Origin: Balanoglossus misakiensis
Lineage: Eukaryota > Animalia > Hemichordata
NCBI GenBank assembly: GCA_040954595.2
Contig: CM082584.2
Location: 9,257,061 to 9,321,060 of the forward strand
Direction: 5' to 3'
Length of the DNA stretch: 64,000 nucleotides
Below, one piece after another: positions 32,101 through 59,000 of this stretch. The translations under genes were made by a program, and so were the position numbers. How positions within the stretch are numbered: position 1 is the first letter of the stretch; every line of letters begins with the position of its first letter. A model generated the notes under the pieces. It saw only the letters and a program-made list of their open reading frames with translations. It did no database searches and was not told the DNA's origin.

Positions 32101-35100
32101 GCTTCTGTCATTCACAGTGTTCGGGCACAGGGAATTTTCAAACACACAGCGATTTTTAGGCCATTGGTGATCGATTCAATATTAAATCACTTGAAATAAT
32201 CTTATTTCAGTTTGATGCCCAGCAGAAGAACAGCCCAAGAGGCTCAATGTACATGAAGATGTTCGGCAACGAGCTGAGCTTCTTGGACTTCCAGAAGATG
32301 GACTGGCTGAACCTGGAGAAGGAATCTGTCAACCTCATCGAGCTGATGATCAAGCTGTCCAAGGAACACTCCAAGGAATTCACCAAGAACATGATCCTGA
32401 TGGAGAGCTCCTTCGACACTCCAACCATCATTGGTATGCCACTGAACGTCGCCATCAACAGCACCGCCTCCCTCAACCTGAAGATCAGCGGCAAGGCTGA
32501 CCTGCGCAAGATCATGGTGTCTCCAAGAAGCTTGAACATCACTGGAGCTATCCGCCCAAGGTATGACAATTCTGCATAATAATTCTTCAACCTGTCATTG
32601 GATACCAAACCAGATAGACCAGGGTTTTCCTTTGCAAACAAGAAACTTCACTATACCGTTTCTGACGAGACATGTTTTTTTCTCTCTCTTTTTCTGCAGT
32701 GCTGCCATTGCTGTCAGCACTGAAATGAGCATGTGCGCTTTCATTGCCCGCACTGGACTGAGAGCTGTCACCCGTATGCACTCTTCCACTGCTTTGGATG
32801 GTAGCATCTCCCTTGACAGCAGCGAGACCTTCAAAGTCAAGTTCAATGTCCCAGACAACCGTATGGAAATCATTGATGTCAGGTAAGAAATGAGGATTGC
32901 AACTCAGTGAAATATGTAACAGTAATGTGCCCTAAGTAGTTCAGGGGACACAATCTCATTTTTTTTTTGTAAAAACATCTTAACATCATTTCTCTTTCTG
33001 TTGCCACTGTTTCTAACAAGACATTTTTTCGTTCATGCCTCCAGCAACAAATTGTACCTGTTGAATGCCAAATACCCGATGGAAATTGCCGGTGTCAGAG
33101 AGAACTACCGTGAATACAGCAAGTGCACCGGACACATTGTTGAGAAGTGGGCTGGTGTCAGACTCTGTGGTGAACTGAAATACCCCAATGCCTCTCAGGA
33201 GGTAAGTTTTCTCTTCAATGCAGTCCATGTACGTTGAAGCAGTTCATTACTTAGATGGATGTTCTTCTGTTGGAGTTCGATTCGTAAGACAGGATGCTTG
33301 AGGTGTACCCTATCCTGTGCCACCTGTTAATTTACCAATTGTTGTGTTTTTCGCTTTCAGATGAATGCCCCCTATTTCCCATTGACTGGCCCAATCAGTG
33401 GCAAGATCACCCTTGACAAAGTTGACCCAACTCTCACCTCTTATGAGATGGAAGCCAAGTACAAGGTTCAGAGGGTAAGCTAGCTGAAACTAATTCGAAT
33501 AAAACATACATTTAATTAATTTAAAAAAAAAAAAGGCCGACATCAAACTTTTTTTTTTAATTTGAAAAAGTGTCAGTTACAGTACTTATGTTGAATCTGT
33601 GTATGCATTTTAACAGTTAAGAAGAAAAGGACTTATTTTTGTTTTCCTCTGAATTATTTTAACAGAGCCGCGTCAATGGCAAGACTGAAATCAGCGACAT
33701 CCTTCGCTTCATGATTGGTACCCCAGGCACTCACATGCCACGCACCCACTCCGTTGATGTCACACTGAACCGCGCCCAGAAGGCCCTCAGCGTCGATCTG
33801 GTCAGCCTGGACAAGAAGGTCTTCCTCACCACCAGCCTGGTCAACGAGACCGACTTGAAGAGAGTGGAGTTGAACGTCAACTACAACAACATGAAGCAGT
33901 ACACCACCTCCGCCGAGGTTGCCATCGACAGGAACGAGCGAGAGAACAAGGTGCGCTACATGCCAACCATTCAAGTCCGCCTGCCCAACAGCATGGACAT
34001 GACCCTGTCTGGTACCTTCACCCACGAGCCACAGCGCAGCCTGGAGAGTGACGTGACCTACCAAGGGATCGGAGGAAAGAGCCGCTTCGTCGGCAGAATC
34101 GTCAACGACACCGACATGAAGAGCATCGCCCTCAGCGTTAGCTACAATGATGCCGAGCCTTACACTCTCAGCGGTGAAGTTGGCATCGACAGGGGTTACC
34201 AGCAGATCCGCTTCAGGCCCGACATCCAGCTGCACCTGTCCGACAGGAAAGACCTGAGAGTGTTCGGCGCCATCACCCACCAGACCGACCGCAGTCTGGA
34301 CATCGACATGACCCTGCGCGGCGTCAGAGACCGCGACGTGGCCGTGACCGCCAACATCAACGGCGAGAAGTGGCGCAGCCTCAACGCCGACGTCACCCTC
34401 AAGGGCGTCAGGGACGAAGACATCACCTTCACCTCCGGCATCAAGAACGAGATGTGGCGCAGCCTGAACGTCGACATGTCCCTGGCCGGTCTCACCGCCC
34501 GCCCGCTCTCCGTGAAGACCGACATCGAAGGCGAGAGGTGGAGCCGCCTCAGCGTGGCCACCACACTCAAGGGAATCAAGAGAGACGACATCGTCTTCAC
34601 CAGCGAGATCAGCGGCGAGAAGTGGAGCCGCCTGGCTGTCGACATGTCCCTGGCAGGAGTCAGAGAAAACGAGATGTCCCTCGCCAGCACCCTCAACGTG
34701 GATGGATGGAGATCCGTCGATGGCAGCATCACCCTGAAGGGAATCAGACAGCAGGACATGGTCCTGTCCGGACAGATGACCAACCAGCCCTGGAAGAGAC
34801 ACGACAGCAGCATCACGCTGCAGGGAGTCACCGAACGCGACATCGTCCTGCGCACCTCCGTGAGCGGCGAGAAGGGACGCAGCCTCGATGGCAGCATGAC
34901 CCTGAGAGGCGCCAGGCCCACTGACATCACCCTTTCCACCAGCCTCAGAGGCGAGTACATGCGCAGCTTCGACGGAAGCGTCACGCTCTCCGGAGTCAGA
35001 AGGGAAGCGATGACCGTAAGCACCTCCCTTAATGGTGAGATGGGAAAATCGTTTGACGGCAGCGTCACCCTCACTGGAATCGCCAGAAGGGAGATCACTC

Positions 35101-38100
35101 TGAAGACCAGTGTTGAGGGCGAGCCGTGGAAGAGCCTGGAGAGCAGCATCGAGCTGACTGGTGCAACCAAGAACGACCTGAAACTGAGCGCTTCGGTGAG
35201 CGGTGAGAAGTGGAGCCGCTTGGATGGCAGCATTGTACTGAAGGGAGTGAGGAAGAACGACATCAGCCTCACCACCAACATCAACGGCGAACCATGGCGT
35301 TCAATGAATGGCCACATCACTCTCAGAGGTATCAGAGAAAATGACATCAGCTTGACAGCAAACATGGATGGCGAGAAGGGCAGCAGATTCAATGGTCTCG
35401 TCACATTGAGGGGCATCAGACAGAATGACATCAGTCTGAACGTCAATGTCGCCGGTCAGATGTGGGACCGCCTGAATGCTGACATCACCCTGAGGGGAGT
35501 CCGTCAACAAGATATTGTCCTCAGCACCGACATCACTGCCGAGATGTGGTCCAAACTGAATGCTGACGTTTCTCTGAAAGGCATCAGGGAGCGTGACATC
35601 ACCCTCAAGACTGTCATCAGTGGCGAGCCTTGGCGCAGCCTGGATGCAGAGATCACCCTCGGAGGCATCAGAGAACAAGACATGAGCTTCGAGACAACCA
35701 TCACTGGTGAGAGATGGCGCAGCCTGGATGCAACCATGACCCTTAGAGGAGTCAGAGAACAGGACATCAGCTTCGAGACAACCATCACTGGTGAGAAATG
35801 GCGCAGCCTGGATGCAACCATTACTCTTAGAGGCGTCAGAGAACAAGACATGAGCTTCGAGACAACCATCACTGGTGAGAAGTGGCGCAGCCTGGATGCA
35901 ACCATGACCCTCAAAGGTATCAGACAGCAGGACATCAGCTTCGAGACCACCATCACTGGTGAGAAATGGCATCGCCTTAATGCTGACATGACCCTTAAAG
36001 GCGTCACCAGACGTGACATCCGCGTTATCACCGCTGTCCAAGGCGAGAAGATGCGCAACCTGAATGCTGACTTGACCATCTCAGGCATCACAAGAGAGAA
36101 CATCGTCTTCAGCAGCAAGATCAAGGGCGAACCATGGCACAGCCTGGATGTGGACATGTCCCTCCGTGGCGCCCATGAGACCACACTCTCCCTGAAACAC
36201 ACCATCACCTTGGAGCTGTCCAAGAGTCTTGAAGTTGACTTCACCATTGAAGGTTTCAACAAGATGCTCGACATCTCTCACAAGCTGATCAACAACGAAG
36301 CCCTCAAGAGATTCGAGTTGAATGTAAATGTCAATAACGACAAGCAGTTTGCCACCAGTGCTGAAGTTGCTATCAGCGCCAGAAGTGGTAACGTGCAGTA
36401 CCTGCCAACTTTCGAGCTCCACCTCCCCAACGGAAAGAACATGATCCTGAGAGGCAGCATTGCACACCAGCCTCAGCGCGGTGTCGATGTCTACTTCACT
36501 TTCTCCAGATCCGGAAATGTAGAGTTGACTGCTGAAGGTTAGTTTAATTATCCATCTTTCCCTTTAATAGGAGTTTTGAGCTACGGCTAGGAGAATGAAG
36601 TATGCGCAATCATAAACTCCAACCTATGTGAAGAAAGTTCCTCTTTCTTGTGATGGTCATCATGATTGTTGATTCACATTTTTTTCCCCATCACAGGACG
36701 CTTCATGAATGTGAGCGGAGAGCAGTACACCACTGAGTTGACATTCACTCACGCCAAACTCAACCTGAAGATCAACAACGACATGCAATACACCAAGGAA
36801 ATCATGGGCTCTCACTTTATGATTGAATACACACCGCAGGGCAAACCAACCCACACTATCGAGTTCTCTGAGACGTTCCGCAACAAGACTGCTGATGTAA
36901 GTGATTTTTAACATGTACTCTTTTATTTACACTTGTGACACGAAAGAAAAAAAAAGAAAGAAATATTACTTCAAGCAGAAATAGAAAGGAAACCCTTGTA
37001 GGTAGAAACTGGGACACAGGCTTGTCATAAAAAGCTATCTGTATATCACATCACTGACACTTTCGATATTTTTTGCATTTTTTCAGGGCAAGCACCACTA
37101 CGAATATGACAGCAGCATGATGACCACCCAGTGGCCAGAGTACAACTATGACAGCAAAATTGCAGTTGAAGCAGCTGCTCGTCGTGAAGGCAGCATTGAT
37201 GTGACTGTCTGCTATGGCCCCAGAACCTGCGATGATGCCAGCAAGACGGTACGTGCACATGATTCTGGAAAAAATTTCCTGTGTTGGGTCTCAGTATTGA
37301 AGGAATGGAATCGTACAGGCTGAAAAAATTACAGTCCAGTTTGACTGACATGTTTTTTGTTTGTTTCAAATGTTCAACAGGTGACTTTCAACATTAACAT
37401 GAAGAACGAAAGCAACATCTACGTCAACAAGGCCAACGCCGCCATGGCTGTGACTCTCCCAGCCTACTCTGTCGACTTCAACATGGACGCCAGCCACGAG
37501 AACACCAGGCACTTCCTGCAGTCGCTCGTCAACGTCAACTACAGACGCGGCGGACGCGTGGGCATGGTGGTCGAACTGAGAAATGACACCCGCGACCTGA
37601 TGAAGGTCAACGCTTTGGTGCAGCTCAACCTCCCATCCCGCCAGCTGTCTCTGAAGCACGACTGCGAAGAGGTGAAGGCCAAGAACTACAAGTCAGAAAC
37701 CACCATGCAGTGGGAGGACGACAAGAAGGTGACCATGGAAGTTGAGTACGACAACGACAGCGACGAATTCAAGTTCGACCACGAGGGCAAGATTGTCTTC
37801 AGCTACCCAGGCCGTGACATCATCCTGAAGGCCAGTGCATTGAATGATGACAAGAAGACCAACGGCGATTTCGAGATCACCTACGCTCCCAACAGGGCCA
37901 TCACCTTCAGCTCTGAATACAAGAACAAGAGCAACAAGAGGAAGACAAATCGCGAAGCCACCATCCGGTTCGACACCCCATTCCGTCTGTTCCGTGACAT
38001 GGAACTGTCCGCCAGCCTGGAGAACACAACCGAGCTCTACGACGGCGAAGTTACTCTGCAGTACGCTCCACGCAAGTCAGTCTCCATGAAGGGCCGCTAC

Positions 38101-41100
38101 CAAAACGCAGGTGAGCCAGACAAGACCCGCCACGAAGTCGAAGCTACCTTCAACGTTGCAAGACGTGAAATCCACTTCTTCACCTACGTGCAGAACAACA
38201 GCAGAGAATACGAGTTCGGCAACCAGTTCACCCTGACCCCCGAGTTCGGCGACAAGAAGGAGGCCACTTTCGCAGTCGGCTACGGTAACTACACCGACAG
38301 CACCAAGCTTCACCACGAGGTCTCCATGGAGCTCACCGCCGGCAACTGCAACATGCTGGGCGAGTTCGGCTTTGAGAAGACCGAGCGCAGCTTCGTCACC
38401 GAGACCCTGATGAGATGGAACCAAGACAAGCAGATGACCTTCACTGTCAACCTGGACAACAAGAGCCGGCCGGAGCAGACCGAGTTCGACCTGGACGTGC
38501 ACCTGAACCACCCGAGTCGCAGAATCGTCCTGGAATTCCACCACGAGAACACCACCGCCGACGTCCTCTCCAGGGTCGACCTCTCCTGGGAACCAACCAG
38601 CAAGATGACAACCGAGCTGGTCTACAGCAAGAGACCAAGCGGCGACAAGGATGTCCACTCCACCCAATTCTCCGTCATCCACCCACAGAAGGCCGTCGTC
38701 CTCAACTACAACCTGGAGAGGAACGAACGCGAGCTGAACAACGACTTCGAGCTTACCCTCGATGGCAAGAGCACCATCAAGGTCACAAGCGACTACAGAA
38801 ATGGCACCGACAGCCGCAGATTCATGTCTGACGCCAACATTGAATTCGAAAGCGAGCTCATCTCATCTGACCCAGTTAGAGTTGAATACCACGTAGAGAG
38901 GATTGGACAGGAATTCAACGTTGACTCCAAACTGACCTACCAGAAAACTCAAGAGGTGAGGTTTTATTATACACTGTACAGGCAATTATTTGATTTAATT
39001 CCACCGTAACAAATTCTTTGATTCTGATTAGACTAAGAGCAGCAGTGGAATCCCTGATTTGAGATTAATTTTAAATTATCCACTTTGCACTGTTGTCCTA
39101 GTTACTTAGCTTCTTTTTAATTGCTTATGGTGTTCTCATTTCTTGCCTTGTAGATCGAGATTGAAATGAGCCATGCTATCCCACGCAAATCTGAAGATGG
39201 CCAGCGCAACGAAGTCAGCTTCAAACTGGATACCCCTCTTGACAACAACAGCCCAATGAAGACCATCGATGTCGAAGGTAGCTACGAGCGCGACTTGGAC
39301 AGCCACAACGTCGATCTCGAAGTGCAGTGGGGCCGCAAGCGCAGAAACCAGAAGGTGTCCATGCAGGGAAGCTACGACCGCAAGGCCGAGGGAACAAGAT
39401 CAGAGCACAACGTGGAAATGAAGCTGAAGCACCCACTGGAGCTGCCACTCATCCCCGAGGAACCAGAGATGACATTCAATCTGGTCCTGGCTCCACAGAG
39501 CAAGGAGACTAGGGTAAGAAGGCGTCCACTTTTTCTACTCCCTCAGGCTTTCTCCCTCAACCTATTCAAACACTGTCTGACTGACACACAGCAAAATGTC
39601 ACTCTTCAAACAGTTGCCAAAATGGTTTCGTTTTCTACTCATTTGACTTGCACCCTGACATATCAATCGACTTTTGACTTGGTCAGCTTGATGTGGCTGC
39701 ATGCACATGTATCTAATGAAACAACCACATGTACTTATGCAGGTCACCTACAAATGGTCCGAACTGAAGGAAGCCAGCATTGCCGCCGTCTACCACAACT
39801 ACACCACCTCATCCAAACTGCACCATCTTGCTGATGTCATCATCAGCCACCCAGATCTTGAGGAGGTGAGTATAGATACACCAGAAGAATGTTTGAATTC
39901 ATGCCATCATCGGTTGCCAGGAAACTGGGCAGTCTGCCTCACACAGAGATCAACTGTGTGATGTGAAAAAAACTCAGATGCAGTAATGGTAAATCAAAAT
40001 TCTAAGATTAACTGTATTGGTGCACTGCCAGGATAAGCGACATAGCCTTAACTTCCAACTGTGGCTTTTTTCTCTCGCAGGACATCCACATGACCACTGA
40101 GACTAAGCTGTTCAGCGGACCAGTTCTTGTCAACACCATGGTGTCCGTCATCTACAGTCCAGACAAGGAGAAGGAAATCTTCTTCAAGACCAAGGCTATG
40201 AACAAGTCCTCCGAGACCGAGTTCCGCTACAGCTTCGAGACTGAGCTTCATCACCTGTACAACAACATTGATGTTACACTGGAAAGGTGTGAACCCACTT
40301 TCTGTTTGGATTAACCTATTATTTCTATAAGACTTGCGTCTACATTCTTCTTACAAAAAAGTGACAAGAACTTTGTTTTGCCAAGTGAACTTTGGTGTTA
40401 ACAACTTTCAATGTTTTTTTTTTAAATTTACAGTGAAGTAGGTAACACTGAGCAGAAAGCCAATGGACTCTTTGACCTAACCTTCAAGAACAAGGAGCAA
40501 TACAACAAGATTAAACTGGATGGTGAAGTTAACAAACCAGAGAGATCTTTCATTGTAAAGGTAGGTGTTTTAATATTTCTGTCATCTTCCAAGCACTCCT
40601 TTCATTGAATTTGATTTTAGTTCATGATGGCTGTGATATCATGTAAGGTGTTTCTGCAATGAGTCAGAGTTCTTGAAGTAATTATTTGCTGCTTGTGGAT
40701 AATTTACCAACAATTGCTAATTGTGAGATATGTCCCCCCTCCCCCAATTTTCCCAGACCGAGACCCCCGTGAAGACCATTGAAATGCAGGGCCAGTTTGA
40801 AGACAGATCCACCGCAGAACACACCATCTTCTACATGACACTGCACAATAAATATGATGGCTGGAAGGAGGTTCACAGCAGCATCGACATCAACACCAGA
40901 GAACGCCTGTTTGAGGTCACAGTCCACCACAACTATGGTAAATAGGACTGTCTTTCCCTTTTTCGCCCATGCTTGTCAAATTTCCACTGTACGTGATTAA
41001 CATTTTCTGTACCTAACAGGAAAGAAAGTCTAAGCTTCTCTTGTCCTTTTTCATGCAGAGAGACCAGAAGACTACACCCGCCTGACCGCTCAATTCTTGA

Positions 41101-44100
41101 ACAGCACCGCAGTCGAAGTCAGAGCCCACCGTAACATCCGTGGTGAGATCATCACTGATGGTTTGATCTACGCCCGCCTCAACACCTCCGAACTTCTGCA
41201 CACTCGCATCCACTGGCGCCCACAGATGTTTGGTGAAATCAAGGTACAAAATGACTGGCGCTTTTTGCAGTCTTATAATAGTATTTTCATGGTGTACAAA
41301 AGAGCCTGCTTATCTGTCTGAACTAACTGTCACATCTTAATAAAATGTTTGTACCTAAAATTTTATATTGTCAAAAATACCTAAAATTTTATATTGTCAA
41401 AAAATAGTTTCAATCCACTATTCATTTTAACATAGCTTGAACTGATCTTTGGTCAACTGGTTTCATTGTTTTAAAGATTTCAAATTAAAGTCTGTACTTA
41501 TTTACTGATGTTTGCACTTTTAAATTTCCGACAGCGCTACGCCAATGAAGTTATTGAGAGAAGCAGGAATCTTCGAGTTGAAGCCACACAGGCCTTGAAG
41601 GAGAAATACTGGGAACTCAAGTATTTGGTCCAAGACGAGATCCGCAGACTCAGAGAGGAGACCGCCATCAATTCTGAATTTGTGCAGGAACTCAAGAAGC
41701 TTGGCGAGGAACTCAAGAAGATGGCCATGGAAATTTACAACGACATGAAACCAGAGCTCAAGGTATGATATCACAAAAATTGGACAACTGTTGTTGTGGT
41801 GATTTTAAGGTGAAAATAAGTTTACACCGAGTACTGTTGCAGTGTACTATAAACAAGAAGGGAGAAGTAACTTGTGTATATTGCAAAACTATTTTAAAAG
41901 TATTAACTTCATGTATATGATTGACTTTCAGGACAAGATCGAAGAAATGAAACAGACCATCCAGACCAAATATGAAGAAATCCGCGCCAAGGCCGAGGAG
42001 CAGTACAAGGAATTCCAAGACAAGTACATGAACGACTTGAAGGAGACCATGAGACAGAGATGGGAGGAGATCAGAGACCAGGCCATTGAATACTACGACG
42101 AAGAGATGAGACCAGTCATGGCCGAGCTCAGAGAGGCCTGGGAAGATGTTCTGGATCTCGCCAGAAAGGACTGGGATGACATCGCCGAGTACTGGATCGA
42201 GCAGTACGACGAACTGAAGGCCATGGTCGAAGAACACACCAAGGTCCTCAGGGAAGAACTGCAAGAATACATCGTCAGAGCCAACCTGACCTACCAGGCA
42301 ATGAAGGGTGAGTGTCTTCTCTACTGAAAATATTTGCAAGCAAAGCATTGTTATGGCAATTAATTTGTGGACCAGCAGAAATGTCTGATAAGCAATTGTG
42401 TGGAAGCTAACTGTCCATGTTCAATCCTTCTCTACGCAGTGAAATTGGCTGAGCTCAAGACCGAGGTTTCCAAGAAACTGAGGGAGTACGAACAGAAATA
42501 CGAAGAAGTCAGAGCAAGGATGGAGAGATTCGCTGCCCGTACTGCAGATGCCATGAGAGCCAAGTGGACCGAGACCAGAGATTTGGCCATGAAGAAGTAT
42601 CAGGAATACAGGGCCATCGCCGAGCAGAAATACCAAGAATACAAAGCCATCGCTGAGCAGAAATACCAAGAATACAGAGCCATCGCTGAGCAGAAATACC
42701 AAGAATACAGAGCCATGGCCGAGCAGAAATACCAAGAATACAGAGCCATGGCCGAGCAGAAATACCAAGAATACAGAGCCATCGCTGAGCAGAAATACCA
42801 GGAATACAGGGCTATTGTCATGCAGAAGTACCAAGAATACAGAGCTCTGGCAATGAAAGAGTTTGAAGATGCCAAGGCCAAGGCTATTGCCACCTGGGAG
42901 GAATACAGAGAAGAGCTTGAACCCAGACTGGAAGAGATGAGACGCCTGTACGAGAAGACCCGCCAGGAAGTCATGGAGAAATACGGAGAGGCAAAGGACA
43001 GACTGCAGGAGATCTACGATGACATCAAGAGGCAGTTTGATGAGCAGTACAAGGCTATCATGAGCATGAGAGAGGTGCAAGAGATCATGGAAATGCAGGC
43101 CCTGAAGGACGTCCCACAGATTGTCATGGAAGAGGTATGTACAGCATTATATTTGATGGCGCAAATACAGGGATTTGATACTTAGCGGGATTGAATGTAA
43201 ATTAGAAATGGGCGACTGATGTTTGTTTGAGAGCAAATAAAATATAGCTACACTAGTGCTTTGTGGACACCATGACGTACAAATGTATTGTTATTGATCG
43301 TGCTAACTGTTCTGGGTTGTCCTGTTCTAGGCCAAATGGGCATGGAACTACTGGCGCGTGGAGAACAGCACCAAGGAGATGTACAACAGAAGCATCGAGA
43401 CCACCGTGAGACTGATCAACGAACTCAAGGAAGAGCTGAAGAACAAGTACTTCCGCTTCGAGCCCGAGAACGGCAACATCTTCATCACCGTCCCTCTGCC
43501 CATCAAGCAGCACAGCTTCGACACCTTGCCCGATATCCGCAACACTCACTTCGACACCCTGCTCAACGTGAACCCCATGGACGTGTACTACAAGTACAGA
43601 CCATCCATGGATATCTGGGACTGGATTCCACCACACAAGAGTGAGTAATCTGATCATGGTTTTTTTTCATAAACATCGTTTTCAATGATGTGCTGTCAAA
43701 CGTGTACCAGACACAGACAAGCTGAAAAAGTACAATTTTCTGTTTGATAGTCAAAAAGAATCACAAAATACTGAAATTGTCATTAATCAAGCATTTCTTC
43801 ACCCCTCCCCCAAAAACAGGCCATGCCATGATTGCTGGTATGCAACACTACATGACCTTCGACAAGAAATTCTACGAATTTGCCGGCGCCTGCAGCTACA
43901 TCGTGGCCAGCGATTTCATCGATGGCAACTTCTCTGTGATTGTCAACTATGATCGTGAGAGCGACAAACCAATCAAGAACTCCTTGACTGTCATTTCCCA
44001 AGACAAGGAAATTGAAATCTTGCCAGACTTCTCTGTAAGTGTTTGCCTTGTATCTTGCGCAGTTCTGCATGATTTTCAAATCACTGTCTCAAACCCTATA

Positions 44101-46624
44101 CATAGGATCACTTGCAGTAACATAAAATACATTAGTAAAATGTGAATTTTTTTTTTAATTTTAAAGTTTTAAAATTGTCAAACTGCGCCTTGGCGAACCG
44201 ATTTTGTTGAAGGCTATCCAACTAAACTTGAGCTCAAATTAATAATTGTGGTTTAATTTATTTTATTCTGACAGGTCAAGGTGAACGACACCACAGTGGA
44301 ACTGCCAGTGCAGTACAGAAACACCACCATCACCCGTGAAGGCAACATGATCCGCGTGCACAGCGCCAACGGCGTCACCGTCACCTGCAACCTGCCACGC
44401 GATGTCTGCACCGTCCAGGTCTCCGGATGGTACTTCGACAAGACCGGCGGACTGGCTGGCACCTACAACAACGAGCACTACGATGACTTCATGACCTCCG
44501 ACCGCCGGGTCACCGACAATGCCGAGGACCTGGCCCGCAGCTGGGAGGTCGGCAAGCAGTGCAGGAACAACATGAACAGAGCCCGCGTCTGCGACAACAT
44601 CGAACAGAGCCCCAGAGCCGACATCTGCAACAACCTCTTCATGAACGAGGCCTCTCCACTGAGGAAGTGCTTCGGTCTGGTAAGTCGCCGTGATTATTAA
44701 ACCCGAAAGAATTCATTGATGGCTGTGCCATTTCCAGAAACAGCAGTACAAAAAGCATCTACTAGAGAAATAATCATATTGTTTCAGTGGCAGATTATAC
44801 TTGTGGCAGTAATTCACATGAACATATTTCTGTGCCTGGTACTAAAACCGACATCATTGCTTTTCTGTTTCACAGGTTGACCCACAACCATTCAGACAGA
44901 TGTGCCTGAACGATCTGTGTGAAGCCAATGAGGTCGACACTGAAGAAGTCCCATGCAATGCTGCTGCTGCCTACGTCAGCGAATGCAAGATGAGCAACGT
45001 CCCAATGTACATGCCTAAGACATGTGGTAAGTAGATTGTGTGTGAAGAAGGTGTCCTTTTCTTGAGAACCCAAACTGTGGGTAGAGTTCCTGTACCAGTG
45101 TTACAAGAGACAGAATCTACAAACAAGTGCCCATTTTCTAAGTTTTTTCCCTCTTTCCTGACAGTCTCATGCAAGAAACCAAACGGTGGCATCTTCAACA
45201 AGAACGAGAACATCAAACTGACCACCACCAAGGACAACGTACCCAAGTCTGCCGACATCGTCGTCGTTGTTGAGGAGAAGAAATGCAACAAGATTCCAGC
45301 CAAGTCTCTTCGCAACTTCATCCGTGATTTGGATAAGGAATTCGAAGACCAAGGTGAGTTTTTTTTCTTAATTAATGGTTACAATAGTTTTTCTAAGTAA
45401 ACCTTTGCTTTCTATAATACAACTGATGGAATCCATTTCTTCACTCAGTGGAATTTTTCAACTTCTAAATGCAATCGTCTGGCTTCTGTTATACTAGGTC
45501 TTAAGGACAACCGCTACGGTCTCGTCGGATTTGGTGGCGAGGGCGTCCATGCTGAAGAACATTCTCACACCATCGACTCCAAACTCTTCCACCAAAATCC
45601 ACGCAAGTTCGTTCTCGGCAGCAACGATCTCGACTTCTCCGGCAACGGCCAGTACAACGACACCTTCCGCGCTATCCGCATGGCCGCCGAGTACCCATTC
45701 CGCACCGGCGTCGCCAAGACCATCGTCCTCCTGAGCTGCAGCGACTGCTCCGAGTCCACCATGGAGTACAGGGAGATCCACGGCATCCTGACCGAGCAGG
45801 GAATCAGCCTGCATGTGATGACCGACAATGGCTTCAAGATCAAGAAATCCAGCATTGTTATTTATGGTGAGTATTATAAAGCCACTTGCCAAATATCTAA
45901 TTTCTAATTGCATGCAAATTCAAGGGAGGGAGAGAGGTGGGAGGGAGGGGGATTGATGCCTAAATTTAATTTGTAAAATGTAATTTGCCACTGAGTCGAC
46001 CTGACCCAGTGAATAAAATACAGTTTGGCATTTTCCTCTCTTAACGAAGAATATTTCATATCTGGCAATCTTTAGGTTTGGATGCTAAGACTGTCTTCAC
46101 CAGCAAAGACGACAACAACCCATACGGAACCAAAGATCTCCGTGAATTCGTGAGAGGCCCCGAAAACCGCTGCACCAGACTGGCCCAGGAGAGCAACGGC
46201 ACCGTCTTCGATGCCAACCTCCTTGGCGAGAAATCCTTCTCCGCCGTCTTCAACCCACGCATGGTCTTCACCACCAAGCCATCCCCCTGCCAGCTGTGCG
46301 AGTGCGTCGAAGATGCCCAGGGCATGGGAAGATCCGTCTGCAGACCCTGTGAGGAGCCAACACCCATCAAGGCCATCAAGGTAGGCATTGCTATAACAAA
46401 ATGTTAATGAAAATATTTGCGGAGGGGAATGAGATGTTTGGTTTGCAGTGTATACTTAAACTCACAGCCTCGTAGCTAAACGCATTTCATTGTCTCTCTC
46501 TCCCAACCAGCTTCAGCCCAGCATCAAAACCACAAGCGCCGAAGTGAAATCCAGCAAGGAGGTCATCCTTTCGGACGTCAAGAACAGCAAGAAGTTCGAT
46601 GACTGGTTCAAGAAGCAGCAGTAA
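26158..46624 (+). CDS. Apolipophorin/apoB-like large lipid transfer protein: signal peptide, vitellogenin-N/LLT module, furin site, long beta-sheet region, amphipathic helical region, VWD + C8, C-terminal VWA-like region. ~39 exons, ~4,100 aa
   Basis: Exon 1 (26158-26209) encodes signal peptide MELKAVVLFAVIGTAFA. LLT motifs: YRYSY, WALNFKRGVLSHFQ, ETDVTGSCPTKY, LKALGNSG, EVRIAAYLAV, NQVGSFVWSHL, SWIPRSA, NLFEFGGRVEG, YFPLTGP. VWD: HYMTFDKKFYEFAGACSY...GWYFDKTGGLAGTYNNEHYDDF. C8: CFGLVDPQPFRQMC. Largest exons are 33666-36537 and 37381-38955. Last exon 46511-46624 ends FKKQQ-TAA. My by-eye exon sum is about 12.36 kb and stays in frame. Confidence 0.93.
34290..36221 (+). repeat. Coding tandem array of 23 x 84 bp (28 aa) inside the largest lipoprotein exon
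   Basis: Consensus RSLDA(D/T)MTLRGVREQDISFETTITGEKW. The 23 units span exactly 1932 bp with no indels. Units 17-20 (35634-35969) are near-identical at the DNA level. Confidence 0.95.
42589..42852 (+). repeat. Coding tandem array of 8 x 33 bp (11-aa EQKYQEYRA(I/M)A) in the helical region
   Basis: GAGCAGAAATACCAAGAATACAGAGCCATCGCT-type units repeated in frame. Confidence 0.95.
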
Positions 46625-48289: not shown

Positions 48290-49216
48290 TCAAATATTTT
48301 GCAAGTATATCAGTCTCGACAGCTGGCACTGTTCCCGGCACAGTGGACATTCCGGCTTTGCCAGACACCATTCCGTGATGCAGCTCCAGCAGAAGAGATG
48401 ACCACACGGCGTAGCTGTCGGATGCTTCCGGGTTTCCAGACACAGCGAGCACCTGCTCCTGGGATCGGCACCGTCCACCTCACCCGGAACGACGTCATTC
48501 CCGTTGCCCACGTCCCGGACTTCCGTGGCCCTGTCTTTCGCACTACGCAGAGATCTGTGTCTGACAAAACCGCTGTACAGATTATACAGGATCGACAAGA
48601 CCAGCTGAGCCAGTGTTATCCATCCCAGAAATCTATAGCTCGGTTGATATTCGTCGTTTGAAATTCCAGCTCGGACCATCAAGTATCGCACCGATGTGAC
48701 CCGCTTGGAAATGTGGTAAAAAATGCCTTTTAAGTAGAAGAGTGCCAGGTGAACCCGGTGGGTGTACATTACACACGTACGGACGGTCGGGATACTCTGC
48801 AGCAGAAACTCTTTCGCAGATTCCGACAGATTGAGTCGTGTTCCGATCGCCTGAATATGCCGTTCTAGCAAAACCAGTCCTTTCTCTATGAGGTAGGGGA
48901 CCAGGCAGTTCAGGAGGACGTGCAGAGCTCTGGCAGTGGTCGACGGGATGGCTCGCTGGGTGCCATCCACCTGGACGATGTTACAGTACTCCTCCCCGAG
49001 AGTTTGATACCCAGCGATCGTGGTCAGCGCAAAGTAGCCCAAGTCGGCGGCAATGTCCAGTTCGCGCCGCCAGTGAATCCATGCTCCGGCCCCAGCAATG
49101 CTTTGAAAGATATCACTCAGATTCCTCCTCAGTAAATGAAGGTAGAACCAATCTTTCTGGTTGGACCTGATGATCTCTGGAGGCCCAGCAGGTTTGAACA
49201 TTCTGGACTGGGACAT
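48290..49216 (-). CDS. PEX10: Peroxisome biogenesis factor 10 (Pex2/Pex12 N-domain + RING E3 ligase); intronless CDS, 308 aa
   Basis: [58 protein letters not shown], and [43 protein letters not shown]. Confidence 0.97.
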
Positions 49217-50544: not shown

Positions 50545-51600
50545 CTAGTCTTTGTAGACGCAATTTTCCAAGAAATCTCTAATGGTCATGCCGATTTCTT
50601 TGGGAGAATCTTCTTGCAAAAAATGCAGCCCCTTGACTGTCTCAACGCGATGATTTGGCCAGTTTTCAGTAACTTTCTTAATGTGCGAACTGAAGAATCC
50701 TGGTTTGGCATGTATGTACAGTTTGGGAATGTCTTTGCTCTGCGATAGCCATGCGCAGTATGCATCTACTATTTCTATCACGTCTTGTGGTCCTTCCGTG
50801 CGCACGGGAATTTCTCTCGGCCAGGTGAGGGTTGGTCGCCGGTCCTCCCCCGCATCGAGGTACGGCCATCGATAGGCATTCATTTCATCTTCGGAGAGGT
50901 CTCGCATGATTGCTCCAGGAAGCAGTCGCTCGACGAACATATTCTTCTTCAGCACGATCTCTTCCCCGTCTTTGGAGCGCATCGACTGGAAGATGTTGCG
51001 AGCGATCTCGGGGAAGGCGTCCCAGGAGGGCATGACGCCTACCACGCCCTCCATGTGCACGATCGCCTTGACGCGTTTCTGGTGCTGGTGGCACCAGTGC
51101 AGACCCAGACCTGACCCCCAGTCGTGGCAAACAATGGTTATCTTCTCGGGCAAGCCGACATTTTCTATCCACGCCGACAGGTACCGGTAGTGATCGACGA
51201 ACCGATAGGAATGGTTCGGAAGCTTGGCGGATTTCCCCATCCCGATCAAGTCAGGCGCGAGGCACCTCGCCACGCCCTCAACGTGTGGGATGACGTCTCT
51301 CCAGAGGAAAGAGGACGTTGGATTTCCGTGGAGGAATACCACTGAATTTCGTTTGAACTCGATTTCTGGTGGGGCTGAGTCGTAGTAGTTCATCACCGAG
51401 TCCAGTACCTTGATTTGCCGACATTGTGAGAACCACGCGTCACCCGCGGCAGATGCAGTATTCCTTGCGGAAACTTGGGACAGTGTCGGAGATGCCCTTG
51501 TGCCCAAACTTTCCCCGTTCCCTTGGAGATGGGCCCTCAGAATCGACATTCGCTGCATACTTCGCCCTTTTCTTACAAACTGAGCTACCAGTCCAGCCAT
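50545..51600 (-). CDS. Renilla-luciferase-like / haloalkane dehalogenase alpha/beta hydrolase; intronless, 351 aa from the ATG at 51600
   Basis: Colinear with Renilla luciferase: VLDSVMNYYDS, FLHGNPTSSFLWR, RCLAPDLIGMGKS, nucleophile HDWG, acid HMEG, RRPTLTWPREIP, KPGFFS, base KGLHFLQEDSP. The longer ORF starting at 51750 probably runs into the promoter. Confidence 0.95.
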   Translation of the reverse strand: MAGLVAQFVRKGRSMQRMSILRAHLQGNGESLGTRASPTLSQVSARNTASAAGDAWFSQCRQIKVLDSVMNYYDSAPPEIEFKRNSVVFLHGNPTSSFLWRDVIPHVEGVARCLAPDLIGMGKSAKLPNHSYRFVDHYRYLSAWIENVGLPEKITIVCHDWGSGLGLHWCHQHQKRVKAIVHMEGVVGVMPSWDAFPEIARNIFQSMRSKDGEEIVLKKNMFVERLLPGAIMRDLSEDEMNAYRWPYLDAGEDRRPTLTWPREIPVRTEGPQDVIEIVDAYCAWLSQSKDIPKLYIHAKPGFFSSHIKKVTENWPNHRVETVKGLHFLQEDSPKEIGMTIRDFLENCVYKD

Positions 51601-52763
51601 GTTGATAAATAGGGTCAAAGGTCGCTCAACACGTGACGATCGAAAAGTGCGTTGTCCCTGCTCCATACTCACGTGATCACTATGACAGCGATCACGTACC
51701 CGAACAGAAGAACATCGGGAAATGATACAAGGCAATCGGTCTGCAGTCATGACATCATGGACATCATACGTTAGATTCTTCAGTAATTTATAGTCAATTT
51801 ATTTCATTGAACAACCCTTAACCCAATACGCGCGCGTATGACTGCTGGCAAGGTGGCTCCTGGCCAAGCAGCCATGTTTTTCTGATTTTTCAGAGCCTCT
51901 AATATTTGTCTTAAAACGTATAAGAACAATGTGCTGAACACATGCATGTTAATTTGTTTTAGTCTATGACCATTTCCCAGGTATTAAGATGTAAGCAAAT
52001 GGATTTGTGATCATGTGGAAATGCAGCTTACACTGTGACCAGTAAATATGATTCCATAATGGACTACAAAGTATTAAAAAGTTGATGTTTTATTTAATCT
52101 TCTATCATTCTCTTATCATGAACTTGAACATGTTACTGGTGTTGTGCTGGATGCAAATCTTCAGGCTGTATCACCACTTTCCACTTGATACTTTTATCCA
52201 TCCATAATCTCCATGGTTTTTCCCCAATGGTCTGTCCATAGTTGGCCCTTGTCTTGATTTTGTTTTCGACTTCTAGCTGTAAACTCAAGGTTCCAAACTA
52301 AGTTGGACCCCCACACATGTAAACAGGGGTGTGAGGCTTACACAAGTTGTGGCTGCAGTTTGCATACACTGTTACTGTAGGTAAAATGTGAACCTTTCCT
52401 GAAGTTTTCTGTGTTTGTCTTGACATTCTTGGGGAGAAGCCAACACCAATCATCACTGAATCCTGTTCGCATATGACATGTGACTTCAGTCAACTGGCGG
52501 ATGTTTAAAAAAAAGGACTCAGGAAACACAAACTCTTTAAAAACATAGAAACAGGGCCACCAAACATGTAGCACTTGAAATGGCATTGGTTTTTTTAACC
52601 GGAGCTCAGCAGTGGTACTTCTCAAGGATAAAAACGGCGCAATGGATGTCCACCAGAGAAAACGTATATGAATAGTCACACACACTGACCAACTGGTTCA
52701 CTGTGGAGCGTGTAACTATTTACATAACTTAATTAATAAAGAAAATTGAGGCAGTCACATCCT

Positions 52764-55282: not shown

Positions 55283-55553
55283 TTTGAAACTCCCCGGATG
55301 TGTTAACTTTGACCTTACGGCCGGTAGTAGTGCGAGTGTCAACAGAACTTCAACGAAACCTGGCCTCAAATAACGCCGAAATCACCATCAGGACATTCAT
55401 CCGCATTAAAGTCCCGATTATTTCGGTACCGGCTACGCAATTACTTTGCGTACTCTTCGAAGAAATAACATAGAAAAGTTTCGCGGGTTCTGTCACGTGG
55501 GGGGAATCCCCATCCCACAATGCAATGTTCCAACCTGGACTCACAGAAGTTTA

Positions 55554-55999
55554 TAGTCTCGGTTACCCAGACGCCTTTGCTTCTTCCGATGCTCTGCAGA
55601 AAAGGGTCTGGGGAAATGCTATTGAAAGCTTTGTAAAACAAAATGGCCGATGTCAGGATTTTGATCATCGCCTGATTGGCTGAGCTGTCAGTATGACCCG
55701 GGTCACTGACTCTCGACAATGTGTGATTATTTGTCGTATCTTCATATCAAGAGACCGGTACTTGTTGGTTGATGCGAAAGGCAAAATGCGTCCTCTGTTA
55801 GCATTGTTGGAGAAATTATATGAAATATCTTTGGTAGACGATTGTCGAAACTATTGCAGTGACCCGGGTCATACTGACAGCTCAGCCAATCAGGCGATGA
55901 TCAAAATCCTGACATCGGCCATTTTGTTTTACAAAGCTTTCCCCAGACCCTTTTCTGGAGAGCATCGGAAGAGCAAAGGCGTCTGGGTAACCGAGACTA
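55554..55999. mobile_element. Non-autonomous foldback DNA transposon (446 bp, ~150-bp TIRs, TAG...CTA termini, 9-bp TSD AGAAGTTTA) in the PRPF38A/ORC1 promoter
   Basis: Arms 55554-55708 and 55857-55999 are reverse complements apart from one 11-bp indel, one 1-bp indel and one substitution. AGAAGTTTA occurs at 55545-55553 and 56000-56008. Confidence 0.9.
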
Positions 56000-56086
56000 A
56001 GAAGTTTATTGAACTGGAAGTGCATGCACCCGGCGTATTCAAATAGTTGAACAGTCGAGTCCTCGATCGATACCAAATTAATCATA

Positions 56087-59000
56087 ATGACGCTGAAACA
56101 CAATTACTTTCGAAGGGAGGAGACATTTACCGCAGAATGGGTGGGTGAGGGAAAACCTTCGAAAGACAGAAGGAAGAGCAGCATTCATTATGAGTAAGTG
56201 ACTTTGATGGACATATGTCATTGTCAGCTTCATCATTGAAATGAAACAACATGACTAAAAGTGTATACTACATCCACAGCCATGATGAAACTGAAATATA
56301 ACTTTCCTGCACGTCCAGTTTAGTGTAGTGTAGTGTAGTGTTGTGTAGTGTAGTGTAGTGATGAGTGAACTTTGAAGGGTAAACATTCATCTCATGATCA
56401 CATCAATTCAGCTTTGATTGATGCAGTTGCAATATTACACATTCATACGTCCCATTGTGAATATTACAGCATTATTTATTTTTCCTTCAGGTCATTTTAT
56501 TTGAAGGGTAGCAGTGGAAGCAAAGTGCACATCCACCGAAACGATTATGTTTGCATAGATAATTCCCTTGGCGTTGACGCATCCTGGCAAGACAATAGTT
56601 TTATTGCAAGAATCGACGATCTATATGATACAGGTATAATCCATTCCATATGTTCAAACTGTCACTTTCGTTCACATTGCGTAATAGACACACATTCAAT
56701 GATTCATTCTTGGAATACGATGATTAAGTCTGAAAAATAACCTTGGAATGTTTTCAACAACTACACACACAGGAGAAGACATCGACAGCAAGAGAGCTTC
56801 GTTGCAGTGGTATATGAGGAATGATGAGCTTCCCAAATCCAAGCAGAAAAAGCAGCATGACCACAGAGAGATCTTTTCATACACAAGGAGGCTGAGATTG
56901 GAAGACAGGGAGATAGACATTGAAACCATCAGATGCAAGTGTAAGGTGAGTCAGTTCCAATGGTATCCATTTCTTCCCACTTATTTCACTCTGGCTTTGC
57001 CGGGTGATAATTCCATGCAGTAACAAATTTCATGGTGGTTGTATCTTGCAGGTCATTCACATTCCCGAGACGTGTCTTTTACCGGACATCATTTCGGACA
57101 ACGGCGTCAATACTTATTACGTCAGGAAGGCCTTTAACGGAGAAAGATTCCTGCCCGTGGAGAAGCAACTGATCGACCGGAGATTCGCTCACCCGTCTCC
57201 GTCAGACTCTGCCAAGAAGGGAAACTACAACACAAGGACTAGAACACCAGGGAGAACCCCAGCCAAGGCGTCTGTGAAGAAACTGGCGAGGCCGAAAAAT
57301 GAAATTGACCAGAGGGAAAAACATCCAGTGAAAGAAACCTCGAAAGTGAAGATTGGAAAGACAGAAGAAAAAACTGCAAAGTCTCCAGGTTAAAATTATG
57401 AGTTATTATTATATATGAATGTCATTGATGCTATAAAAGAATGTATGCCATGTAAACGACTTTCTCGTTAGTTGGATTTCATGGAAAGTACTACCTTACA
57501 TACATGTACATATATTTTCCACTTCAACATAGAGGAACATGCACTACTGTAAGATAAAATGAAACATGGTGTAACATTTTCCCCCTTTGATTATGTCACA
57601 CAGGGGAGTTTACATCTCCAAACAGAAGAGGACTTATTAGAGATAAATTTGTGCTGGATTTTCTACAAAACGACAGTGATGACGAGGATGCATTTGAAGA
57701 TGATGACAGCGCGTCAGACAGGACATCAGTGTACAGTGGCGAGTCTGTGGACTTGGCCGTCAGTGTGAAGAAGAAGGGGAAACTGGCCAAACGGAAAGCT
57801 AGTAAGAGTGAGGTAGGGGACCTGTCTGTCAAACCCAAAAAGCAACGTGTTGGCGTATCCGTGCTAAGTACAACACCGTCTGTGAAGCTGGTAGACAGGA
57901 AAGAATTGAGGTGTCCGTCGACGGCTCCGGCCAAGAAGTCTTCAGTTTCGGTGGAGAAGGGGGCACAGTCGGAGCAGAAGCAGCAACACAGGAGGAAATC
58001 AGACACCAGATTATCCAGGAAATCTCTGAGTTTTGACAGCAAATTGCCAAGATCAAACGGAGTGGCTGTCTGTCTGGAGTCGTTGTCGGTGAAAGTTCGG
58101 CATGATGATGCAAAGACTCCTCAGAAAAGACCCCTTAGCTCAAGCAAAATGAGTGGGACCAGACCCCCTAACGCAAGCAAAATGAGCGGGACCAGAATGA
58201 CGCCAGCCAGAACAGCCAAGAAGAGAGTAAGCGTGAGAGTGGATGAGGACAGTTTTGATGACAGTGAAGTTGATGAAGATTATCGTCCGAAGAAGGAAGA
58301 GGAAAGTAGCGATGATGACAATGATGATGACGATTTCCTGGTGGAGGTTCAAACTCCTCGATCGAAGAGAAGGGCCTCAGTGAACACTCCACGCAGTAGA
58401 GGAAGACCCAGGAAAGAGGTGAGGGGGAGTGTATTTTGTCGAGGGCTTACTTTTGATAGCTGGTTGAGATACAGTGTCACATCATTGAAAATTGCTTATT
58501 GAATAATTGTCTAACTCTATGACAATTGTACAATTCATAGTAATCATGATCACCAAAAGGATCTTACATGTATTGTGCCATTTTCTTGTGAAACCAACAC
58601 AGCAGAGCACTGCCCAGACTCCAAGAAACCAGACCAGGAAGACGCCACGGAAGGCGACGATGACACCAAGCATTCCACACAGACACAAACCATGCCTGTT
58701 GCCCAAGAGTCCACTGGAAGCTGCCAGGGCCAAGCTCCACGTATCGGCCGTGCCGGACACTCTTCCGTGCCGGGAGGACGAGTTTGCCGACATCTATGGA
58801 TTTGTGGAGAGTAAGGTCTTGGATGGAACTGGTGGGTAAGTTCATTTGGAAATCCTGGCGTAAATTGGATGGAGAGAATTATGACTCAGACTGTTATTAC
58901 TAGTATGAATTTGATTAAAAATTGTGTGTGCAGATCTATTTGCATATATATATTTTTCTTCATAGATGCATGTATATATCTGGGGTGCCAGGCACTGGTA

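What the first reader, a model, noticed from the sequence alone, without database searches (positions are those of the whole stretch)
51526..51600. PTS2-like peroxisomal signal (RMSILRAHL) on the luciferase/dehalogenase-like protein, with alternative starts
Seen: an N-terminal extension of ~35-40 aa relative to RLuc, MAGLVAQFVRKGRSMQRMSILRAHLQ.., containing R-M-S-I-L-R-A-H-L (51552-51526). In-frame ATGs lie at 51600, 51558 and 51549, and the first 28 aa are basic with no acidic residues. Established: PTS2 is R-[LIVQ, also M]-x2-[hydrophobic]-x2-H-L near the N-terminus (thiolase RLQVVLGHL, AGPS RLRVLSGHL), is recognised by PEX7, and import needs the PEX2/10/12 ligase. Firefly luciferase is peroxisomal, whereas RLuc has no such signal. 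Inference: an RLuc/HLD-family enzyme that acquired organelle targeting, with start choice perhaps selecting mitochondrion, peroxisome or cytosol, encoded directly beside PEX10. This could be an undescribed peroxisomal dehalogenation or luminescence system.
Basis: partly seen in the sequence, partly recalled or inferred. Interest (0 to 1): 0.8.

Follow-up and report, generated by a model that had tools for sequence, protein, structure and literature searches.

The report
Animal dehalogenases carry conserved peroxisome signal
This acorn-worm gene encodes a dehalogenase-like relative of sea-pansy luciferase, and its short N-terminal peroxisome-import-type motif is conserved from soft corals to sea squirts but missing from the luciferase itself, so these enzymes of unknown role likely work inside peroxisomes (and possibly mitochondria).

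Summary
In detail: RMSILRAHL lies at 51552-51526 on an intronless 351-aa HLD-II haloalkane dehalogenase of an acorn worm. It is not a local gain. A PTS2-type nonapeptide occurs in 34 of 73 animal homologues (shuffles 1.2; bacteria 1 of 165) from five phyla. The central position, left free in the search, is hydrophobic in 36 of 36, and His varies only to Gln. Renilla luciferase nests among motif-bearing octocoral-type enzymes, so it likely lost the signal. The extensions also look like mitochondrial presequences. In acorn worms a Met two residues before the motif is kept in 5 of 5 intact genes. Two Glandiceps duplicates show complementary states: motif without leader, and leader with broken motif. 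The window's own copy deviates from the strict consensus at two positions, and PEX7, start sites and localisation could not be tested. PEX10 adjacency is not seen in two relatives, the third start (M18) is not conserved, and luminescence is unlikely. Best reading: a likely new PTS2 cargo family, probably shared with mitochondria; substrate unknown. I found no report of it in four targeted literature searches, nor in this scan's earlier notes.

The parts
50545..51600 (-). Intronless gene for a 351-aa HLD-II haloalkane dehalogenase / Renilla-luciferase-like protein
   Evidence: ORF; Pfam Abhydrolase_1; 79% to Ptychodera flava, 80% to Glandiceps; best PDB hit AncHLD-RLuc 6g75 E=2.6e-149; single copy in the window
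51526..51552 (-). PTS2-type nonapeptide RMSILRAHL (residues 17-25)
   Evidence: Sequence; conservation statistics; modelled as part of helix 11-25 at low confidence
51559..51600 (-). M1 leader (residues 1-14), basic and hydrophobic, no acidic residue; predicted to add mitochondrial-presequence character
   Evidence: Net +5 and hydrophobic moment 0.76 from M1, against +2 and 0.47 from M15; same-length leader in P. flava, 8-aa leaders in Saccoglossus and Glandiceps copy 2
51556..51558 (-). M15, second start candidate, two residues before the motif
   Evidence: Met at this place in 5 of 5 acorn-worm genes with an intact motif
51547..51549 (-). M18: second residue of the motif; not supported as a start
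   Evidence: Weak context; Val in P. flava, Glandiceps copy 1 and one Saccoglossus gene
51451..51525 (-). Unstructured linker (residues 26-50) ending in an R-x-x-S/T-type site resembling a presequence cleavage site
   Evidence: No secondary structure in model; R-x-x?-[ST]-[STA] in 32 of 73 extensions against 15.7 in shuffles
50623..51324 (-). Catalytic pentad N93, D160, W161, E184, H326, with P94 (Ala in RLuc)
   Evidence: Alignment to RLuc residues N53, D120, W121, E144, H285, A54; Pro in 79 of 79 animal-clade sequences
51610..51648 (-). Conserved non-coding block (ACTTTTC, E-box GTCACGTG, CCTTTG) ending about 10 nt before M1; likely core promoter
   Evidence: Aligned with both Glandiceps copies; function inferred
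48290..49216 (-). PEX10 coding exon; neighbour, probably unrelated to the finding
   Evidence: Pfam Pex2_Pex12 + RING; sequence; adjacency not seen in relatives

Best explanation
The gene encodes an animal haloalkane-dehalogenase-family protein with an intact catalytic pentad and an N-terminal nonapeptide conserved across five animal phyla, which likely acts as a PTS2 signal taking the enzyme into peroxisomes through PEX7, with part of the protein possibly going to mitochondria. Shown: motif, conservation pattern, active-site residues, tree position. Inferred: (1) after transfer from bacteria the gene gained an N-terminal helix plus linker early in animal history; (2) PEX7 binds the helix and the folded enzyme is imported; (3) the same basic, acid-poor extension can also be read as a mitochondrial presequence, and in acorn worms starting at M1 would favour mitochondria and starting at M15 peroxisomes (about 0.4); (4) the enzyme hydrolyses aliphatic carbon-halogen bonds, by analogy with DafA, probably clearing haloalkyl by-products of peroxide or lipid metabolism (substrate class about 0.3); (5) Renilla luciferase lost the signal secondarily.
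For: Motif R[LVIQM]x5[HQ][LAIF] in 34 of 73 animal extensions (36 with Val allowed last), shuffle mean 1.18, 0 of 2000 shuffles reach it; strict consensus 10 of 73 (0.08); bacteria 1 of 165; R..H spacing 7 in 42 sequences against 3-17 at other spacings; unconstrained central position L/I/V/M in 36 of 36; His 31, Gln 5. Pro 0 of 324 positions in the motif against 45 of 666 in the next 20 residues. These match the PTS2 features in PMC4585086 section 12. Present in 17 of 29 clusters at 70% identity and 17 of 33 named proteins. Helix then unstructured linker in the model. PEX7 is listed for Capitella, Strongylocentrotus, Branchiostoma and two Ciona species (PMC4690255 supplement 2). Glandiceps duplicates are sisters (91): copy 1 starts at the M15 equivalent with RVTVILSHL and has no leader ATG; copy 2 keeps an 8-aa leader, has ATA at the M15 codon and RGTVIFSHF. 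RLuc lies in a 99-supported clade with motif-bearing octocoral-type proteins. DafA is a measured dehalogenase (PMC12059646).
Against: The window's own nonapeptide fails the strict consensus at position 2 (Met) and position 6 (Arg) and the original consensus at position 2. 37 of 73 homologues, 16 of 33 named ones, lack the motif. PTS2 proteins are described as acid-rich upstream of the motif, but 29 of 36 have no acidic residue there and 53 of 73 have none before residue 20, so mitochondrial import could dominate. Sequences are related, so shuffle counts overstate independence. Only 7 of 36 motif-bearing proteins have two Met before the motif. The Glandiceps split is one case, and copy 2 is not among the called genes. 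The N-terminal model has pLDDT under 50 for most of residues 1-41. PEX7 was not seen in any hemichordate.
Confidence: 0.68

Rival explanations
1. The extension is only a mitochondrial presequence; the nonapeptide is a by-product of an amphipathic helix, or is overridden by mitochondrial import.
For: Basic, acid-poor extensions (53 of 73), enriched R-x-x?-S/T sites (32 of 73 against 15.7); several homologues without the motif look like plain presequences; a single PTS2-destroying change can create a mitochondrial signal (PMC4585086).
Against: A presequence has no known need for His or Gln exactly seven residues after Arg (42 at spacing 7; Lys..His 1); 7 of 36 motif-bearing proteins have acidic residues upstream of the motif.
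Confidence: 0.2
2. The family signal is real but this copy has decayed (Met at 2, Arg at 6) and the protein is cytosolic or mitochondrial only.
For: Two deviations from the strict consensus; decay is common in paralogues such as Glandiceps copy 2 and P. flava P0005.
Against: R, central L, H and L are all kept in the only copy in the window; Met at position 2 recurs in 5 of 36 homologues and a Saccoglossus paralogue; Arg at position 6 is shared with P. flava; RMx5HL is tabulated for three rice proteins.
Confidence: 0.09
3. The protein is a peroxisomal coelenterazine luciferase, part of a light system linked to PEX10.
For: Homology to RLuc (153 identical of 308 aligned); shares H182, V186-V187 and F222 with luciferase-capable members.
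Against: P94, G185, F196, F204 and an ancestor-type alpha-4 segment; the ancestor's luciferase activity is about 7000-fold below RLuc8 (PMC8203615); P. flava light is ascribed to a brominated quinone and riboflavin (PMC4208949); homologues occur in non-luminous animals; PEX10 adjacency not seen in two relatives.
Confidence: 0.03

Closest known systems
DafA of Amphiura filiformis (PMC12059646) and DspA of Strongylocentrotus purpuratus (seen only as cited in bioRxiv 10.1101/2025.09.13.676034)
   Same: Same animal HLD-II clade, single-exon genes, catalytic pentad; G185 matches DspA Gly145, the Val pair matches DafA
   Different: No localisation or N-terminal signal is discussed in the papers checked. 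I could not map DafA or AfLuc onto my sequences, so whether they carry the motif is open.
Renilla reniformis luciferase (PDB 2psf and relatives) and AncHLD-RLuc (6g75)
   Same: Fold, pentad, about 50% identity to RLuc; closest solved relative is the reconstructed ancestor
   Different: RLuc has Ala54, a remodelled L9/alpha-4 region and no extension or PTS2
PTS2 cargo proteins such as peroxisomal thiolase (PMC4585086 section 12)
   Same: Near-N-terminal R..hydrophobic..H/Q-L helix without Pro, followed by an unstructured linker
   Different: Met at position 2 and Arg at position 6; no acidic region upstream; cargo is a bacteria-derived hydrolase; under 30 PTS2 cargoes are counted in that review
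Dually targeted mitochondrial/peroxisomal enzymes such as AGXT (PMC4585086 sections 23, 25)
   Same: Location may be set by start choice and may shift between lineages
   Different: The examples described there pair an N-terminal signal with a C-terminal PTS1; here both signals would overlap at the N-terminus, a case the review calls conceivable but unstudied

Membership tests
HLD-II haloalkane dehalogenase | alpha/beta-hydrolase fold with cap domain | tested here: met
   Pfam, PDB hits, model pLDDT 87.9
HLD-II haloalkane dehalogenase | Asn-Asp-Trp-Glu-His pentad with Pro after the Asn | tested here: met
   N93 P94 D160 W161 E184 H326; pentad definition recalled
HLD-II haloalkane dehalogenase | Hydrolysis of haloalkanes | not testable with these tools
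   Shown for the relative DafA only
Renilla-type luciferase | RLuc-type Ala54 and L9/alpha-4 segment, small residue at the Phe164-equivalent site | tested here: not met
   P94, ancestor-type segment, F204; the role of residue 54 is recalled, PMC12059646 mentions a single-residue switch without naming it in the part read
PTS2 cargo | Strict consensus R[LVIQ]xx[LVIH][LSGA]x[HQ][LA] | tested here: not met
   Window copy has Met at 2 and Arg at 6; 10 of 73 homologues do meet it
PTS2 cargo | Key residues Arg, hydrophobic, central hydrophobic, His/Gln, Leu; no Pro; near N-terminus; unstructured linker | tested here: met
   RMx5HL variant tabulated in PMC3355810
PTS2 cargo | Acid-enriched region upstream of the motif | tested here: not met
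   None in the window protein; none in 29 of 36
PTS2 cargo | Selective conservation of the motif in orthologues | tested here: met
   34 of 73 against 1.18; flanks variable
PTS2 cargo | PEX7 in the genome; PEX7-dependent import | not testable with these tools
   No genome held; PEX7 listed in bracketing lineages only
Mitochondrial presequence | Basic amphipathic N-terminus without acidic residues, Arg-based cleavage site | tested here: inconclusive
   Hand-made features are met for the M1 form; no trained predictor was available

The most novel reading that the evidence does not exclude
A bacterial dehalogenase was domesticated in the cnidarian-bilaterian ancestor as an organelle enzyme through one overlapping PTS2/presequence N-terminus. 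Acorn worms split the two destinations by two start codons, Glandiceps has fixed them in two genes, and the conversion into Renilla luciferase went with loss of the signal. This would point to an undescribed peroxisomal-mitochondrial dehalogenation step in marine invertebrates.
Probability: 0.3. Interest if true: 0.78.

Novelty: new member of a known kind. Interest (0 to 1): 0.58.

Why it matters
Why some animals kept haloalkane dehalogenase genes is stated as an open question in PMC12059646, and their natural role is unknown. A conserved organelle signal says where to look for the substrate and can be tested with a simple reporter. It would add a whole enzyme family to the short list of PTS2 cargoes and give a natural case of a PTS2 overlapping a presequence, which PMC4585086 calls unstudied. 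It also adds a localisation change to the origin of a widely used luciferase. The parts themselves (PTS2, the enzyme family) are known.

Tried and rejected
No genome is held, so PEX7, PEX39 and other copies could not be searched. No RNA holder listed; start sites are unmapped. PEX10 link rejected: best tblastn hit in Glandiceps L001 E=2.4; of 831 window ORFs only those over the dehalogenase gene matched L001; the P. flava locus lists a second dehalogenase and PRP38 but no PEX10, though no DNA was served, so an uncalled gene is not excluded. PTS1 switch: P0040 lacks the motif and ends in SKL, but 1 of 79 is no more than the 5 of 165 seen in bacteria, so I do not count it. A pre-animal origin of the signal (Rhynchopus RAACLVSHL, unnamed P0278 RATALSRHL, P0309 ending SKL) is unresolved: these form a separate long-branch group. 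DafA and AfLuc sequences could not be identified. The Atlas search gave only haloalkane dehalogenases. A search for peroxisomal dehalogenation of halogenated lipids gave one unrelated paper. Earlier scan notes gave nothing on this motif. Bromophenols and bromoindoles of acorn worms (PMC6315191) are aromatic and so unlikely substrates (established knowledge).

Full report
Observation. The minus strand carries an intronless ORF at 51600-50545 encoding 351 aa. Residues 17-25 are RMSILRAHL (51552-51526). In-frame ATGs lie at 51600, 51558 and 51549 as stated, and also at 51750 and 51666. The two extra ones are upstream of a non-coding block (about 51648-51610, with an E-box) that aligns with both Glandiceps copies, so they are probably outside the transcript; this is inferred, as no RNA run was listed. 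The first acidic residue is E30.

Identity. The best homologues are from the acorn worms Ptychodera flava (79%), Glandiceps talaboti (80%) and Saccoglossus (65%), and the window protein is sister to the P. flava one (SH-aLRT 99). The pentad N93, D160, W161, E184, H326 aligns with that of Renilla luciferase, with Pro94 in place of Ala54. For RLuc I used residues 1-311 of an unnamed fusion construct (P0261); its V146, D162 and F181 match the numbering in bioRxiv 10.1101/2025.09.13.676034. The closest solved structure is AncHLD-RLuc (E=2.6e-149 against 5.4e-105 for RLuc), and the alpha-4 segment is of the ancestor type. G185, F196 and F204 side with dehalogenases or weak-luciferase ancestors; H182, V186-V187 and F222 are shared with luciferase-capable members. 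The protein is therefore best read as DafA-like: a dehalogenase with at most trace light.

Conservation of the motif. From three homologue searches plus two genes translated from L001, I kept 244 full-length sequences; fragments under 275 aa, sequences without the HGN motif, one synthetic protein, one bacterial fusion and the truncated Glandiceps model P0003 were dropped. 79 form the animal clade (support 0.99). Five with extensions under 20 aa and one isoform were then dropped, leaving 73. R[LVIQM]x5[HQ][LAIF] occurs in 34 of 73 (36 with a final Val allowed), the original consensus in 21, the strict one in 10; shuffle means are 1.18, 1.51, 0.99 and 0.08, and 0 of 2000 shuffles reach the observed counts; the first 40 residues of bacterial homologues match in 1 of 165. 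Arg-His spacing 7 occurs in 42 sequences against 3-17 for other spacings. The central position was left free and is L/I/V/M in 36 of 36; the eighth is His in 31 and Gln in 5; Pro is absent from all 324 motif positions. These are the PTS2 features described in PMC4585086. Named carriers include Dendronephthya (ending in Val), Owenia, five echinoderm genera, Branchiostoma, Clavelina and Ciona intestinalis; 16 of 33 named proteins lack it, some narrowly. The sequences are related, so the shuffle test overstates independence; 17 of 29 clusters at 70% identity carry the motif. The model shows a helix at 11-25 and no structure at 26-50, at low confidence.

Against. The window's copy fails the strict consensus at two positions. 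RMx5HL is tabulated for three rice proteins (PMC3355810) and Met at position 2 recurs in the family, but I saw no test of it in animals. The acid-rich upstream region typical of PTS2 proteins is missing in 29 of 36; 53 of 73 extensions have no acidic residue before position 20, and an R-x-x?-[ST]-[STA] site is enriched near their end (32 of 73 against 15.7). The extension thus also resembles a mitochondrial presequence. I had no trained predictor and no control set of presequences.

Start choice. In acorn worms a Met two residues before the motif is kept in 5 of 5 genes with an intact motif, and 4 of these 5 have an upstream Met with an 8- or 14-residue acid-free leader. From M1 the window protein has net charge +5 and hydrophobic moment 0.76, from M15 +2 and 0.47; P. 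flava behaves alike. Glandiceps has two sister copies. Copy 1 (L001 9929-10939; its gene model starts too late) begins at the M15 equivalent with RVTVILSHL and has no in-frame ATG between the conserved block and that Met. Copy 2 (L001 4602-3571) keeps an 8-residue leader like Saccoglossus, has ATA at the M15 codon and Gly at motif position 2. That is what a split of two destinations would look like, but it is one case. Outside acorn worms most carriers have a single Met; only 7 of 36 overall have two. M18 is not conserved.

Direction of change. RLuc has no extension and falls in a 99-supported clade with Dendronephthya and three unnamed motif-bearing relatives, inside the animal clade (94) (quick tree, no bootstrap; 60 of 233 rows used). 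PMC12059646 likewise places RLuc with non-luminous octocorals and argues for an early transfer from bacteria.

Context. The neighbour is PEX10 with its own coding exon 1.3 kb downstream. It is not within 10 kb of the Glandiceps gene and is not called in the P. flava locus, where PRP38 is the conserved neighbour. I treat the adjacency as chance. PEX7 could not be sought here; it is listed for Capitella, Strongylocentrotus, Branchiostoma and two Ciona species (PMC4690255 supplement 2, places 15-42 of 84 read), which bracket hemichordates; no hemichordate row was found. P. flava light is ascribed to a brominated quinone with riboflavin.

Mechanism and odds. Motif under selection: about 0.95. PEX7-dependent import of this protein: about 0.68. 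Some mitochondrial share: about 0.55. Start choice setting it: about 0.4. Substrate: aliphatic halides from peroxide or lipid chemistry, about 0.3, inference only.

Literature seen. PMC12059646: term passages, parts 2 and 3 of 6 of the text, supplement searches and part 3 of 5. PMC4585086: passages, sections 12 and 25. bioRxiv 10.1101/2025.09.13.676034: passages and section 25; supplements not seen. PMC4690255: passages and supplement rows. PMC12339391: passages, supplement search without hits. PMC5413902, PMC3355810, PMC4208949, PMC6315191, PMC8203615: passages only. Not in print as far as searched: 0 papers; 0 papers; none with 'peroxisomal targeting signal'; 'peroxis' occurs 0 times in PMC12059646, PMC5413902, the preprint and PMC8203615. 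Subscription papers, among them the DspA description and Chaloupkova 2019, were not seen and could mention localisation.

Verdict. A real, conserved and apparently unreported targeting signal on a known enzyme family: a likely new PTS2 cargo, with a plausible overlapping mitochondrial signal. Interest 0.58.

Noticed in passing
P0005 (P. flava paralogue, locus, 14181-15245): The copy next to PRP38 has Ala for the nucleophile Asp, Leu for the catalytic His, an insertion in alpha-4 and a broken motif: a likely pseudoenzyme kept as an open frame.
   Followed up: partly
L001 9929-10939 and 4602-3571: The Glandiceps gene model P0003 starts 24 codons too late and hides the motif; the intact second copy is not among the called genes.
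   Followed up: yes
window 51610-51648: Conserved block with an E-box and a direct-repeat-1-like nuclear-receptor site (recalled consensus) immediately before M1; the 5' leader may be very short, which could favour skipping M1.
   Followed up: partly
P0065, P0127, P0043, P0062, P0130, P0410, P0415: An unnamed subclade near the octocoral proteins has replaced the motif with MGxxxS starts (myristoylation-like, recalled), and some members have a longer presequence-like form upstream.
   Followed up: no
P0320, P0278, P0309, P0284: Non-animal or unnamed dehalogenase homologues with RAx5HL motifs (one from the diplonemid Rhynchopus) or C-terminal SKL/AKL: possible independent peroxisomal targeting.
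   Followed up: partly
window 48290-49216: [quoted passage not shown]
   Followed up: no
window 33663-46455 (+): Large multi-exon gene with apolipoprotein-like repeats, a 959-aa exon at 33663-36542 in a G+C- and A-rich stretch and von Willebrand-like exons; probably a large lipid transfer protein.
   Followed up: no
window 55474-56103: A stretch appears duplicated (near-identical translated segments at about 55550-55750 and 55850-56050) upstream of PRP38.
   Followed up: no
P0302 (Owenia): A divergent paralogue begins with a hydrophobic signal-peptide-like stretch, suggesting yet another destination in this family.
   Followed up: no
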